64,000 bases of DNA, from positions 13,394,001 through 13,458,000 of the forward strand of contig NW_024704742.1 in NCBI RefSeq assembly GCF_018977255.1, given 5' to 3'. Source of the DNA: Callorhinchus milii (Eukaryota). Below are positions 34,290-47,806 of this stretch, piece after piece. The notes under the pieces were generated by a model. It did not search any database, was not told the DNA's origin, and was given only the letters and a program-made list of their open reading frames with translations. Position 1 is the first letter of the stretch; every line of letters begins with the position of its first letter. The position numbers were made by a program, and so were the translations under genes.

Positions 34290-35684
<1,395 letters not shown>

Positions 35685-40288: not shown

Positions 40289-40715
40289 TATAAAGCCACT
40301 GCACTTGGTTGAAATGACAATACTTGTGAAGGCTTTTTAACACATTTAAATGTAAATGCAACATGAATATATATCCCTCCCAAATTTATTACAGACTTGT
40401 ATAAAACCTCTATGGACCCTAAGCTACAGTCGTGAGTGTTTGCTCTAGGTGTAAAACACATTGATGGTTCATTGAGGTTATCTAGTAAGTAGCTGAGCAA
40501 TACATACCGGGTAGGTGGGGGTGAGGGGGGGTGAAGGTCACAGGATTGATACCTAGCCTGGTCTGTGCTGTGCACTGGCCTGATCTGTGCTATGCTGGTC
40601 GGTCTTTGCTGTGCTGATCTGTGCTTTGCTGTGCCAACAGTTGAGGCAGGCGAATGCCATTACTGGACTCAGTGCCCTGAAGGCAAAATCTGCCATAGTC
40701 CCTGCAGGACACATA

Positions 40716-41063
40716 AGAGTCCTGTAGCTCAGTGGTTAAAGCACCCGGGTTTGATTCCTGGCAGGGCAAAACGTTGGGCACGTTTCCTTACTCCACAGTT
40801 CTCTGTTTAGCTAGCAGTAAGTAGGAACCTGGTTGTTAGTCGATTGGCGGATTACTTTTCAGGGGGTAATAATTCTTTCAAAACAATAATAATAATAATA
40901 AATTAGTTACTTAAATCCACGACAGTTTGTGAGATACTGCTGTGGGCAATTGACTGCCATGTTTCGCCCACAGTCAATTCACTTGATAGTATATTCTGTA
41001 AAGCGCTTTGAGACGTCTCACAGACGTGATAAGGTCTATATCAAATGCAAGGATTATCATTAT
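40716..41063 (+). mobile_element. tRNA-Ala-derived SINE
   Basis: Head with a deletion, body and tail. Confidence 0.85.
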
Positions 41064-42142: not shown

Positions 42143-43013
42143 CTCATATGCTTAAAGCTCCACTATAGACCTCAATTGGGATTAAATTAGTGATGGTACA
42201 AGACTGCAGACACTGGATGACGACAGGATTGGGTTTGGCTGCATTGTTCCTCGCAATTGAATAACCTGCTATAGCACTGCCTTTCAAGGTCTGTGTATGA
42301 ATAATGGTCACACAGGTGGGGAACTGGAGGGCATTTATGGAATTGTACTACCCTTGAAGAAGAAAAGCACTCAAATGCCTTCCAGACAGGAGCCCCTCCC
42401 CTACCCAAATCGCGATCTTGCAGATTGTGGGTAGAGGAGAAGGGACAAAGAATTCAGTATACAGTATTTTACCCAGTGTGCTCAACATTTGAGTGTTTTG
42501 GCGGAAAAAAAAGCCAAACTGGGATTTGTACAAGAAATATTTAGTTTGTACTTTCCTACTGCATTAGACCCCTTAAGTTGTTGGGAGTGAACATTTAACA
42601 ACACATATGTATAATTTTAGAGTTAAAAATATTTTTCACATGAGCAGCTTGTCAGTTGGTTTGTGATGGCATTTAGCAAGAGAACCTGGGATCATAGATC
42701 TTTTGGGCTTCTTTCCAGTCAGTTCAAATCTGTGTAGTATACTGTCTAAAGATCAGAGTTAACACTGTACATTGGAAATTCCTCCAAGGAACTGTTGGGT
42801 GGATGCCCAGCGCTTTGGGACGTCCTCCCAACATGAAAGGCGTTGTACAAATGTAATTTGGTATTGTATTAAATCACTTTGGGTTTGGATTGTGGCTCTG
42901 AGAAACATCTTCCAAGGAAAGCAGAGACACTGGTAATGCAGAAGAGCACTCCTGTTGTGATACTTCAAGCTCAGAAACTCATTGTTCCAGAACCGTGTGT
43001 GCAATGCAAATAC

Positions 43014-43142
43014 CTCTTCGTCTGCTTGAATTTTTTCCTTCCAGATTTCCTTCACCACACTGACTGTATCCTTCCTGCTTATTTTGGTGTTTTTCACCAG
43101 ACCATCATGTCTCAAAAACATCAGGACATCTTCTCCGGTGCC
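43014..43142 (-). pseudogene. Orphan TSNAXIP1-like exon fragment with GT donor, inside AK3 intron 1
   Basis: 43 open codons GTGEDVLMFLRHDGLVKNTKISRKDTVSVVKEIWKEKIQADEE|GTATTT, similar to recalled TSNAXIP1 GYGEAIPAFLRFDGLVENKKPSKKDVVNLLKDAWKERLAEEQ. No AG acceptor; joined to a SINE. Confidence 0.75.
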
Positions 43143-43144
43143 CA

Positions 43145-43415
43145 CAAGTGAGAGATCTGGGTTTGATTCCCGGCAGGGCAAAACCTTGGGCAAGTTTCCT
43201 TACTCCACATTCCTGATAATAATCCCTCAAGAAAAAAATAATAATTTGGTCAATTCAATCCACGACTCTTTGTGGGACACTGCTGTGTGCAATTGGCTGC
43301 CGCGTTTCGCCCACAAAAATGCAGTCAATTCACTTTACAGTATATTCTGTCCTGCGCCTTGGGACGTCCTCCTGGACATGAAAGGCGCTATACAAATGTA
43401 ATCTTGTTGTTGTTG
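43145..43415 (+). mobile_element. 5'-truncated tRNA-Ala SINE ending in an L2-type tail
   Basis: Begins at caagtgagagatctgggtttgattccc; ends gggacgtcctcc..tacaaatgtaatc(ttg)n. Confidence 0.85.
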
Positions 43416-43779
43416 CTTTCTCTCACATTTCCTGAAGACGTGACTCTTCCACAGTCTATCTCAGGTACTTTACTCAGTTGACCATTATTTACATGTATGT
43501 AAGCATTGACACAAAGATTGACGGATTATTCAACCACAGGGATAATTGCAGATGAGCCTGATCGTATCCTCACTTGACATTCAGACGTACACCATTGGGT
43601 CACTGGATACCAATTAGAAGTGAGAGCCTTGGCTTAGTTCCAAATTCTGTTGCATGGGATATGAGCCCTCAACCCTTGTAACCTGTATTTTCTAGTGCTG
43701 GGGACCTTGGGACGTCCTCCTGACGTGAAAGGCGCTATATAAATGTAATTTGTTGTTGCTGCACAGGAGAATGCATTGA

Positions 43780-43974
<195 letters not shown>

Positions 43975-45898: not shown

Positions 45899-46153
<255 letters not shown>

Positions 46154-47251: not shown

Positions 47252-47374
<123 letters not shown>

Positions 47375-47806
47375 TAAGTTCTGGTGAAGGTTAATTCTGC
47401 GTAGATGCATCTTGGGAGTATTGCATCACCTATGTGGGAAACCTTTAGAGTAACATGTTTAAAATTGAGTGGACACTGAGCACAAAATGTGTTCTGAAGG
47501 GTTTATTTTGTGAGTTTTGTTAATAACCTAAACATGCATATAGTAATAATAATAAATTGGTCACTCAATCCATGACACTGTTTGTGGGACACTCCTGGGC
47601 GCAATTGGCTGCTGTGTTTTGCCCATAAAATATACAGTTGATTCACTTTACAGTCTACGCTGTGAAGTGCTTTGAGACTTCTCGAAGATGTGATAACACG
47701 CTATATCAAATGCAAGGATTATTATTATTATTGGGACACCAGATTACAAAAAGGGTCTGATTCCAATTCAACTTGAGAGATAGTTTTGCTGTGTTTCTTT
47801 CTGTAG

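What the first reader, a model, noticed from the sequence alone, without database searches (positions are those of the whole stretch)
42870..43415. Foreign TSNAXIP1-like exon with its intron flank, fused to a decapitated SINE in AK3 intron 1
Seen: the minus strand at 43142-43014 is 43 open codons (GTGEDVLMFLRHDGLVKNTKISRKDTVSVVKEIWKEKIQADEE) followed by GAG|GTATTT and about 140 bp of non-repeat sequence. On the other side it joins directly to a tRNA-Ala SINE that lacks its first ~40 nt (A box). The junction reads cacttgtg-ggc, whereas other SINE copies read cacttgtgaggc, which suggests microhomology with an ag|ggc acceptor. Recalled knowledge: human TSNAXIP1 contains GYGEAIPAFLRFDGLVENKKPSKKDVVNLLKDAWKERLAEEQ, and TSNAXIP1 is not part of the RCL1/AK3/CDC37L1 block. 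No other TSNAXIP1 exon was recognised in the window. Inference: an unspliced gene fragment was moved by retroelement template switching or SINE-associated transduction, giving raw material for exon shuffling.
Basis: partly seen in the sequence, partly recalled or inferred. Interest (0 to 1): 0.75.

Follow-up and report, generated by a model that had tools for sequence, protein, structure and literature searches.

The report
Stray TSNAXIP1 exon copy beside SINE
A 500-base unspliced piece of the elephant-shark TSNAXIP1 gene (one exon plus part of its intron) was copied from another chromosome and now lies, dead and inverted, against the cut-off front end of a SINE inside an intron of the AK3 gene; it is a real but ordinary by-product of retroelement activity or DNA break repair.

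Summary
Minus strand 43142-43014 is 43 open codons, 88% identical to Callorhinchus milii TSNAXIP1. The real gene lies on contig C14 (14 exon matches). The window holds one exon only. DNA homology to C14 runs over window 42642-43143 (about 500 bp, 94-95%): the whole exon plus 372 bp of its downstream intron. It starts at the exon's first base. The exon has lost its AG acceptor, differs by 5 non-synonymous and 1 synonymous changes, and has diverged as fast as the intron, so it is a neutral relic.

It abuts a + strand tRNA-Ala SINE that begins at tRNA position 34 (anticodon loop) and keeps its (TTG)4 tail. Fragment and SINE are in opposite orientation. That excludes plain transduction or same-strand template switching.

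My best reading (about 0.45) is a twin-priming-type chimeric insertion made while the SINE retrotransposed. The main rival (about 0.35) is a templated patch in a double-strand break at an existing SINE. The target-site duplication, age and microhomology tests were all inconclusive.

Contigs of two other DNA runs bridge the left junction, and one nearly bridges the right, so this is not a misassembly. No RNA evidence was found. This is a new member of a known kind, of modest interest.

The parts
42642..43143 (-). Copy of part of the TSNAXIP1 gene (exon plus downstream intron), parent at G000:C14:12356475-12356970 approx.
   Evidence: blastn gives 94% over 497 columns. The global alignment shows 24 substitutions in 488 aligned bases plus 3-4 indels. 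It has only 2 places in the genome.
43014..43142 (-). Copied exon: 43 codons, equal to TSNAXIP1 residues about 431-473, the 10th of 14 exon matches. The donor GT is kept and the acceptor AG is lost.
   Evidence: The C14 exon translates identically to P0003, whereas the copy has 5 amino-acid differences and 1 synonymous change.
42642..43013 (-). Copied 372 bp of the intron that follows that exon. It shows the source was unspliced at this intron.
   Evidence: 18 substitutions in 359 aligned bases.
42800..42860 (+). Old 3'-end fragment of a SINE that was already in the parent intron and was copied along with it.
   Evidence: Present at the same place in C14. Very high word depth in sequencing runs.
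43143..43415 (+). 5'-truncated tRNA-Ala-derived SINE. It starts at tRNA position 34 (CACAAG), has its B box at 43159-43178, and ends in a (TTG)4 tail at 43415.
   Evidence: At least 5194 first-look candidates in the genome.
43137..43148 (.). Junction between the exon's first base (43142) and SINE position 34. Base 43143 (C) fits both partners.
42636..42641 (+). TCACAT, left copy of a possible target-site duplication, abutting the fragment.
   Evidence: the 6-mer is shared with 43423-43428, with chance probability about 0.05-0.10, so this is inconclusive.
43423..43428 (+). TCACAT, right copy. It lies 7 nt after the SINE tail rather than directly against it.
35349..35468 (+). AK3-like exon (AK3 residues 12-50), bounding the host intron on the 5' side.
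43843..43971 (+). AK3-like exon 2 (AK3 residues 50-91), 428 bp downstream of the SINE tail.

Best explanation
This is a dead, single-copy, templated insertion. About 500 nt of unspliced TSNAXIP1 sequence (the 10th exon match plus 372 nt of the next intron), whose source gene sits on contig C14, was copied into AK3 intron 1. I think the most likely route is a twin-priming-type event during retrotransposition of the SINE itself. In that model the LINE machinery primes reverse transcription of a SINE RNA from the bottom strand at the (TTG)n tail. The cDNA reaches only the anticodon-loop region (position 34). The opposite, top-strand DNA end (…TCACAT-3') primes a second reverse transcription on a bystander TSNAXIP1 pre-mRNA, from +372 in the intron back to the start of the exon. 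The two cDNA ends are then joined with little or no microhomology. This yields [inverted gene piece][5'-truncated SINE][tail], as observed. Shown: the donor and its identity, the extent of the copy, the opposite orientation, the SINE truncation point, neutral decay, and the presence of the junctions in other DNA runs. Inferred: the RNA intermediate, that the two parts arrived together, and the order of steps. The general statement (a non-functional dispersed copy of the C14 gene) I hold at about 0.95. The twin-priming mechanism I hold at about 0.45.
For: The donor is found and retained. 14 TSNAXIP1 exon matches lie on C14 and 1 in the window. Exon and intron are copied contiguously at 94-95%. 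The fragment lies at the 5' end of a SINE with an intact tail and in the opposite orientation. A paper on LINE-1 chimeras assigns that geometry to twin priming, and same-orientation chimeras to template switching or splicing (PMC13174262, passages read). The whole copied stretch lies within one transcription unit on one strand. A TCACAT repeat flanks the whole composite, and the left copy is complete and abuts the fragment. SINE age estimates (1.2% private changes to 6.1-6.7% own-branch distance) bracket the roughly 2.4% per lineage of the fragment, so arrival together is allowed. Other events fall at the same SINE site: a six-locus family with a foreign roughly 315-bp leader joined at position 36, a SINE-SINE junction at position 36 (L029), and an insertion into positions 34-38 (L061). 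Contigs of X1 and X2 bridge the left junction. One X1 contig covers the exon with all 6 copy-specific bases and runs 29-30 nt into the SINE.
Against: The TCACAT repeat is not significant (p about 0.05-0.10), and its right copy is 7 nt away from the tail. No empty site could be examined, because both flanks are unique in the genome. No microhomology links the top-strand end to the parent sequence at the left junction. No known RNA species begins at an exon's first base while keeping the next intron, so the break at the exon edge stays unexplained. The LINE partner and its habits (target-site duplications, twin priming) are not known for this SINE subfamily. The age test cannot exclude an older SINE (own-branch estimate 6%). 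The hotspot statistics are weak (roughly p 0.02-0.1 by my rough count, on samples chosen by similarity).
Confidence: 0.45

Rival explanations
1. Two-step origin through break repair. A SINE, already 5'-truncated or later broken in its anticodon-loop region, sat in the AK3 intron. A later double-strand break at its 5' edge was patched by end joining with a cDNA or DNA fragment templated from the TSNAXIP1 locus. This corresponds to a 'class 2 templated sequence insertion'.
For: The junctions look like end joining: 0-1 nt strict microhomology at both ends and no poly(A). There is no convincing target-site duplication. The distance-based SINE age (6.1-6.7%) may exceed the fragment's roughly 2.4% per lineage. 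CACA lies on both sides of the fragment (TCACAT| … |CACAAG), which could be a 4-nt duplication of a second event. L061 shows that the SINE's CACAA loop can be an insertion target. Templated patches from intronic or intergenic sequence are described in humans (PMC5110952, passages read).
Against: It needs two independent events within a few bases of each other. The left repeat reads TCACAT, identical to the copy beyond the SINE tail, rather than the TCACAA expected if the fragment had split a SINE/target junction. The private-substitution count of the SINE is low, 3 of 258.
Confidence: 0.35
2. A purely DNA-level copy made by replication template switching (FoSTeS/MMBIR-like). A stalled fork in the AK3 intron invaded the TSNAXIP1 locus, copied about 500 bp in inverted orientation, and returned. 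No RNA was involved.
For: The orientation is inverted, the intron is retained, and microhomology is short. Nothing in the sequence proves an RNA intermediate.
Against: Donor and acceptor lie on different large contigs (C14 and C1). The copy ends exactly at an exon edge and lies wholly inside one transcription unit. It is adjacent to a retroelement 5' end.
Confidence: 0.1
3. The exon is part of a working nested or antisense gene, or a new exon in use.
For: The 43 codons are still open and the GT donor is kept. A stop-to-stop frame of 146 codons runs through it.
Against: Only 1 of the 14 TSNAXIP1 exon matches is present. The AG acceptor is replaced by TG. There are 5 non-synonymous changes to 1 synonymous, and the exon (4.7%) has diverged as much as the intron (5.0%). 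Pfam finds nothing in the 43 residues.
Confidence: 0.03
4. Assembly artefact that joins C14 sequence to C1.
For: The two paralogous copies share stretches longer than 31 nt. Contigs of X1 and X2 switch to C14-like bases inside the fragment.
Against: The copy carries 24 substitutions of its own. X1 and X2 contigs join 337 unique flank bases to the fragment with copy-specific bases at 42656, 42659 and 42675. Contigs covering 42831-42979 are identical to the window at all copy-specific sites. One X1 contig spans the exon into the SINE.
Confidence: 0.02

Closest known systems
LINE-1 chimeric insertions with an antisense partner, attributed to twin priming (PMC13174262; passages read)
   Same: A foreign RNA-derived piece sits at the 5' end of a 5'-truncated retroelement, in the opposite orientation, with no splice signals at the junction. 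That paper also reports tRNA pieces broken at the anticodon loop (positions 1-37).
   Different: Here the retroelement is a SINE of a cartilaginous fish, not LINE-1. Its partner LINE is probably CR1-like; PMC1845163 says so for the major SINE (passages). The partner is an unspliced exon-intron piece. No clear target-site duplication or endonuclease motif could be shown.
Templated sequence insertion polymorphisms, class 1 and class 2 (PMC5110952; passages read)
   Same: A short stretch templated from a distant, retained donor, which may be intronic, inserted with end-joining-like junctions.
   Different: Those are human polymorphisms, whereas this is an old copy (about 5% diverged) in a chimaera. 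Its position directly at a SINE 5' end is not a defining feature of that class.
Twin priming of L1 (5'-inverted L1 copies; Ostertag and Kazazian 2001, recalled, not read here)
   Same: The layout is inverted 5' segment, then direct 3' segment, then tail.
   Different: In classic twin priming both segments come from one L1 RNA. Here the two segments come from two different RNAs.
Processed retropseudogenes and L1-mediated exon shuffling by transduction (recalled knowledge)
   Same: Gene sequence is dispersed by retroelement machinery.
   Different: This copy keeps its intron, has no poly(A), is not co-linear with the element, and is antisense to the host gene.

Membership tests
TSNAXIP1 (functional gene or paralogue) | Multi-exon gene encoding the TSNAXIP1 N-terminal domain (PF15739) and the rest of the protein | tested here: not met
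   Only 1 exon match in the window against 14 on C14. Pfam finds nothing in the 43 residues.
TSNAXIP1 (functional gene or paralogue) | Intact splice sites and purifying selection on the exon | tested here: not met
   The acceptor AG is replaced by TG and the donor GT is kept. There are 5 non-synonymous changes to 1 synonymous. Exon divergence is 4.7% against 5.0% for the intron.
Processed retrocopy (retropseudogene) | Introns removed; poly(A) tail | tested here: not met
   372 bp of intron are retained, and no A-run lies at either end.
Twin-priming-type chimeric retroelement insertion | Foreign or inverted segment at the 5' end of a 5'-truncated element that keeps its 3' tail, in opposite orientation | tested here: met
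   The SINE is on the + strand from position 34 to its (TTG)4 tail, and the fragment is on the - strand directly at its 5' end.
Twin-priming-type chimeric retroelement insertion | Target-site duplication flanking the whole composite | tested here: inconclusive
   TCACAT lies at 42636-42641 and 43423-43428. Chance probability is 0.05-0.10, and the right copy does not abut the tail.
Twin-priming-type chimeric retroelement insertion | Empty site lacking both parts together | not testable with these tools
Templated sequence insertion, class 2 (break patch) | Donor retained at a distant locus; insert templated from it | tested here: met
   C14 keeps the exon and intron within an intact gene.
Templated sequence insertion, class 2 (break patch) | No target-site duplication or poly(A); end-joining junctions (microhomology, small deletions, filler) | tested here: inconclusive
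   There is no poly(A), and microhomology is 0-1 nt strictly. A possible 6-nt duplication cannot be excluded.
tRNA-derived SINE of the elephant shark | tRNA-like head with A and B boxes, body, and a tail shared among copies | tested here: met
   B box present. Full copies have a head called tRNA-Ala(TGC). 28 of 30 related copies start at positions 1-4. The (TTG)n tail is shared. This copy lacks positions 1-33.
tRNA-derived SINE of the elephant shark | Partner LINE sharing the 3' end | tested here: inconclusive
   Six loci share only the last 110 nt or so, with no common LINE body upstream. PMC1845163 reports a CR1-like partner for the major SINE.

The most novel reading that the evidence does not exclude
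Both sides of the junction fall on RNA-processing landmarks: the first base after a 3' splice site, and the anticodon loop of the tRNA-like SINE head. The boldest reading still allowed is that two run-off cDNAs were joined end to end. One would come from a SINE RNA cut, or blocked for reverse transcriptase, in its anticodon loop like a tRNA half. The other would come from a TSNAXIP1 RNA whose 5' end lay exactly at the 3' splice site, a species not described. On this reading the anticodon loop is a recurrent recombination or insertion point in this SINE family. That point would generate new composite elements, such as the six-locus family with a foreign 315-bp leader joined at position 36.
Probability: 0.12. 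Interest if true: 0.55.

Novelty: new member of a known kind. Interest (0 to 1): 0.3.

Why it matters
The finding matters little by itself. It is one neutral relic with no sign of use. It does show that a SINE system in a chimaera, probably driven by a CR1-like LINE, can leave the same kind of inverted chimeric insertion catalogued for mammalian LINE-1, here carrying an unspliced exon-intron piece of a gene. The copy is also a small molecular fossil. It keeps a lysine that ray and sawshark orthologues share, where the living elephant-shark gene now has methionine. The repeated breaks in the SINE's anticodon loop are a lead for a genome-wide census of how composite SINEs arise.

Tried and rejected
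- **Pfam on the 43 residues:** no family found. The piece is too short, so identity was settled by homologues instead.
- **Splice-junction origin** (antisense SINE exon spliced to the TSNAXIP1 exon): the only good donor in the antisense SINE (CTT|GTGAGG) would give …CACTT|GGCAC, not the observed …CACTTGTG|GGCAC. The copy would also have to start exactly at the SINE tail. Rejected.
- **Deletion model** (an antisense SINE upstream of the exon in C14, later brought next to it by deletion): a 14-nt SINE-head-like word at L002 1299-1312 turned out to be isolated, with no SINE there. Rejected.
- **SDSA or gene conversion from the C14 intronic SINE.** That SINE is a full-length copy of the same subfamily and starts about 29 nt beyond the end of the copied stretch. 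It is in the wrong orientation and order, and at 87% identity it is no closer to the window's SINE than other copies, the best of which reach 91%. Rejected.
- **Homeology as the cause of the break at the exon edge:** the best local SINE-head/parent alignments lie elsewhere and are near chance.
- **Target-site duplication test:** inconclusive.
- **Age comparison of SINE and fragment:** inconclusive. Estimates were 1.2% (biased low) and 6.1-6.7% (biased high by the mix of subfamilies).
- **Empty-site proxies:** both flanks are unique in the genome.
- **LINE partner:** not identified.
- **Rfam:** no family reached its threshold on the three loci scanned (L011, L002, L001). There were only two sub-threshold hits on L011, including a tRNA-like match at 26.9 bits against a gathering score of 29.
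- **RNA evidence:** no RNA holder was listed for the stretch. A run guessed to be RNA (X6) covered only the repeat parts.
- **X2 cover:** X2 gave no cover over 43002-43109, and only repeat-level depth in the 43110-43163 bin that holds the junction.
- **Earlier notes of this scan:** none for this genome or these words.
- **Literature search** for SINE truncation at the anticodon loop (terms SINE, truncated, anticodon loop, retrotransposition): 4 papers listed, none on this point judging by title and abstract.

Full report
**What is there.** A homologue search returned TSNAXIP1 of Callorhinchus milii (88% identity, E 6e-15) and of a ray and a sawshark (66% and 61%). Pfam finds nothing in so short a piece. 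The window is G000:C1:13394001-13458000 of a 991.5-Mb assembly.

**The parent locus.** The full C. milii protein matches 14 exon-sized places on contig C14 (12342124-12366714, + strand) and only one place in the window. A DNA search with 42866-43145 finds exactly two places in the genome: the window itself and C14:12356475-12356753 at 95%.
- Pairwise comparison extends the homology to window 42642-43143: 94% over 497 alignment columns, or 24 substitutions in 488 aligned bases plus 3-4 indels.
- The stretch covers the whole exon (the 10th of the 14 matches) and 372 bp of the intron that follows it.
- It includes an old SINE 3' fragment that is also present in C14.
- So the source was not spliced at this intron.
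- Homology starts at the exon's first base. C14 reads …ttgcag|GGCACT and the window reads …cacttgtg|GGCACC.

**State of the copy.**
- The C14 exon translates exactly as the annotated protein. The window copy differs at 5 residues and has 1 synonymous change.
- Exon divergence (6 of 129, 4.7%) equals intron divergence (18 of 359, 5.0%).
- The AG acceptor is gone and the GT donor remains.
- Using ray and sawshark as outgroups, two changes (L to M, I to T) are derived in the copy. One (K to M) is derived in the living gene, so the copy keeps the ancestral lysine. Two cannot be polarised.
- A 146-codon stop-to-stop frame through the exon simply runs on into SINE and intron sequence.
- All of this points to a neutral relic.

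**The neighbour.**
- The sequence from 43143 to 43415 is a + strand tRNA-derived SINE, with its B-box region at 43159-43178 and a (TTG)4 tail.
- The genome search gave 5194 first-look candidates. The best other copies are 91% identical.
- ARAGORN calls the head of a full copy tRNA-Ala(TGC). In that numbering the window's copy begins at position 34, inside the anticodon loop.
- Of 30 related copies, 28 start at positions 1-4.
- The SINE is on the + strand and the exon on the - strand, so the two are in opposite orientation.

**Host gene.** ADK-domain exons lie on the + strand at 35349-35468, 43843-43971, 45938-46054 and 47264-47377. The first two match AK3 best among solved structures, at residues 12-50 and 50-91. 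The composite therefore lies in the first coding intron, 428 bp upstream of exon 2 and antisense to AK3. I did not check RCL1 or CDC37L1.

**Is the assembly right?** Four runs of one 2025 study hold 48-73% of the stretch's sampled words. X1 and X2 were laid; their contig totals are close to genome size and their depth is flat over intron and exon, so I take them to be DNA.
- Contigs of X1 and X2 cover 42305-42832. That is 337 unique flank bases plus 191 bases of the fragment, with the copy-specific bases at 42656, 42659 and 42675.
- Contigs covering 42831-42979 are identical to the window at every copy-specific site.
- One X1 contig covers 42950-43172, with all six copy-specific exon bases and 29-30 bases of SINE. 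That is just short of the tool's 31-base rule for bridging.
- Some contigs carry C14-like bases: 42711 (X1 only); the 2-bp gap at 42755, 42784 and 42793 (both runs); and 42994 (X1). These are either switches between paralogous paths in the assembly graph or real alleles.
- A 2014 DNA run (X5) matches 42634-42831 without a difference.
- No contig showing a clean empty allele was among the joints listed. 38 further joints were not shown.

**Mechanism.** Opposite orientation rules out 3' or 5' transduction and simple same-strand template switching. Those give co-linear chimeras, as stated in PMC13174262 (passages). The layout [inverted foreign piece][5'-truncated element][tail] is the layout assigned there to twin priming. 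That paper also notes antisense mRNA partners without splice features, and tRNA pieces broken at the anticodon loop. I therefore favour a single event in which a second reverse transcription, primed from the top-strand end, copied a bystander TSNAXIP1 pre-mRNA.

The tests that could have confirmed this are weak.
- **Target-site duplication:** a TCACAT repeat flanks the whole composite, with chance probability 0.05-0.10, and the right copy is 7 nt from the tail.
- **Microhomology:** strict microhomology at the junction is 1 nt. It is 3-5 nt (GGC to GGCAC) only if a 1-nt slip is allowed.
- **Homeology:** the best local similarity between SINE heads and the parent region is not at the junction.
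- **Age:** SINE age estimates of 1.2% (private changes, biased low because the comparison set was chosen by similarity) and 6.1-6.7% (distance-based, biased high by the subfamily mix) bracket the fragment's roughly 2.4% per lineage.
- **Empty site:** both flanks are unique in the genome, so no proxy exists.

The main rival is a two-step history: a double-strand break at the SINE's 5' edge patched with a templated piece, like class 2 templated sequence insertions (PMC5110952, passages). A purely DNA-level template switch cannot be excluded.

**The break at the exon edge.** The gene-side break falls at the exon's first base, or one base before it. I know of no RNA that starts there while keeping the next intron. 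Splicing of an antisense SINE donor to this exon does not reproduce the junction. I leave this as a coincidence of roughly 1 in 100-200, or as an unexplained clue.

**The SINE-side break recurs.**
- Six loci share a unit in which about 315 bp of C-rich non-SINE sequence is joined to the SINE at position 36.
- L029 joins a SINE 3' region to a SINE at position 36.
- L061 is a full SINE with an inverted, heavily truncated SINE 3' end inserted into its anticodon loop, flanked by a CACAA duplication of positions 34-38.
- In a second sample of 22 copies chosen by their 3' part, 8 are full length, 13 start between positions 88 and 223, and 1 is L061.
- The enrichment at positions 34-38 is suggestive only. 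I put it at p 0.02-0.1 by a rough count, on samples chosen by similarity.

**Comparison with what is known, and verdict.** The elephant-shark survey paper reports a tRNA-derived major SINE whose 3' end is shared with a CR1-like LINE (PMC1845163, passages). Chimeric and templated insertions are well described in mammals. This is another instance, in a chimaera, with a SINE and an unspliced gene piece. Novelty: new member of a known kind. Interest is modest.

Noticed in passing
L011:4845-5440 (G000:C3:45694390-45694985) and five more loci (C4:77.81M, C7:1.57M, C1:113.15M, C2:110.77M, C3:35.60M): A low-copy composite repeat of about 590 bp: a C-rich non-SINE leader of about 315 bp joined to the SINE at tRNA position 36 (…TTGGT|CAAGCGAGAG). 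It is 90-95% alike between loci. In the six-locus search the leader was never found without the SINE part. It may be a chimeric SINE that was itself copied.
   Followed up: partly
L061 (G000:C19:7495413-7495773, reverse strand): A full SINE with an inverted, heavily 5'-truncated SINE 3' end inserted into its anticodon loop. The insert starts with (CAA)n directly after …CTCACAA and is flanked by a CACAA duplication. This suggests that the loop sequence is a target for (TTG)n-tailed elements.
   Followed up: partly
L029 (G000:C32:1394634-1394814); L032 (C1:135364821-135365001) and L033 (C4:44293499-44293679): L029 joins a sense SINE 3' region directly to a SINE at position 36. L032 and L033 show head-to-head inverted SINE pieces abutting SINEs that start at positions 4 and 14. 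These could be nested insertions or twin-priming-like products.
   Followed up: no
window 42711, 42755-42756, 42784, 42793, 42994: At these sites contigs of the 2025 runs carry the C14 (parent) base instead of the window's: X1 only at 42711 and 42994, both X1 and X2 at the other three. 42769 A>T matches neither copy. The cause is either paralogue path switching in contig assembly, or standing variation or gene conversion in the copy.
   Followed up: partly
window 43050-43052 (codon 31 of the copied exon): The copy keeps lysine, as in the ray and sawshark TSNAXIP1, where the living elephant-shark gene has methionine. The relic preserves an ancestral state.
   Followed up: yes
L002:1960-2340 (G000:C14:12356934-12357314): In the parent intron, AACAACAAAC lies 7 nt before the end of the copied stretch. 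It is complementary to the SINE's (UUG)n tail. A full-length SINE of the same subfamily starts about 29 nt beyond that end. No model I tried makes use of either fact.
   Followed up: partly
L021 (G000:C39:22019-22199) and L022 (G000:C3:69343521-69343701): The same SINE copy with identical flanks appears on a small contig and on a large one. This is either a recent duplication or redundancy in the assembly.
   Followed up: no
P0003 versus P0004 and P0005, alignment A4 columns 516-568: This C. milii TSNAXIP1 isoform lacks a segment of about 53 residues that is present in the ray and sawshark proteins directly after the copied exon. It could be a skipped or unannotated exon.
   Followed up: no
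window 40667-41027: A SINE copy with an internal deletion of about 20 nt that removes the anticodon arm (positions about 26-46).
   Followed up: no
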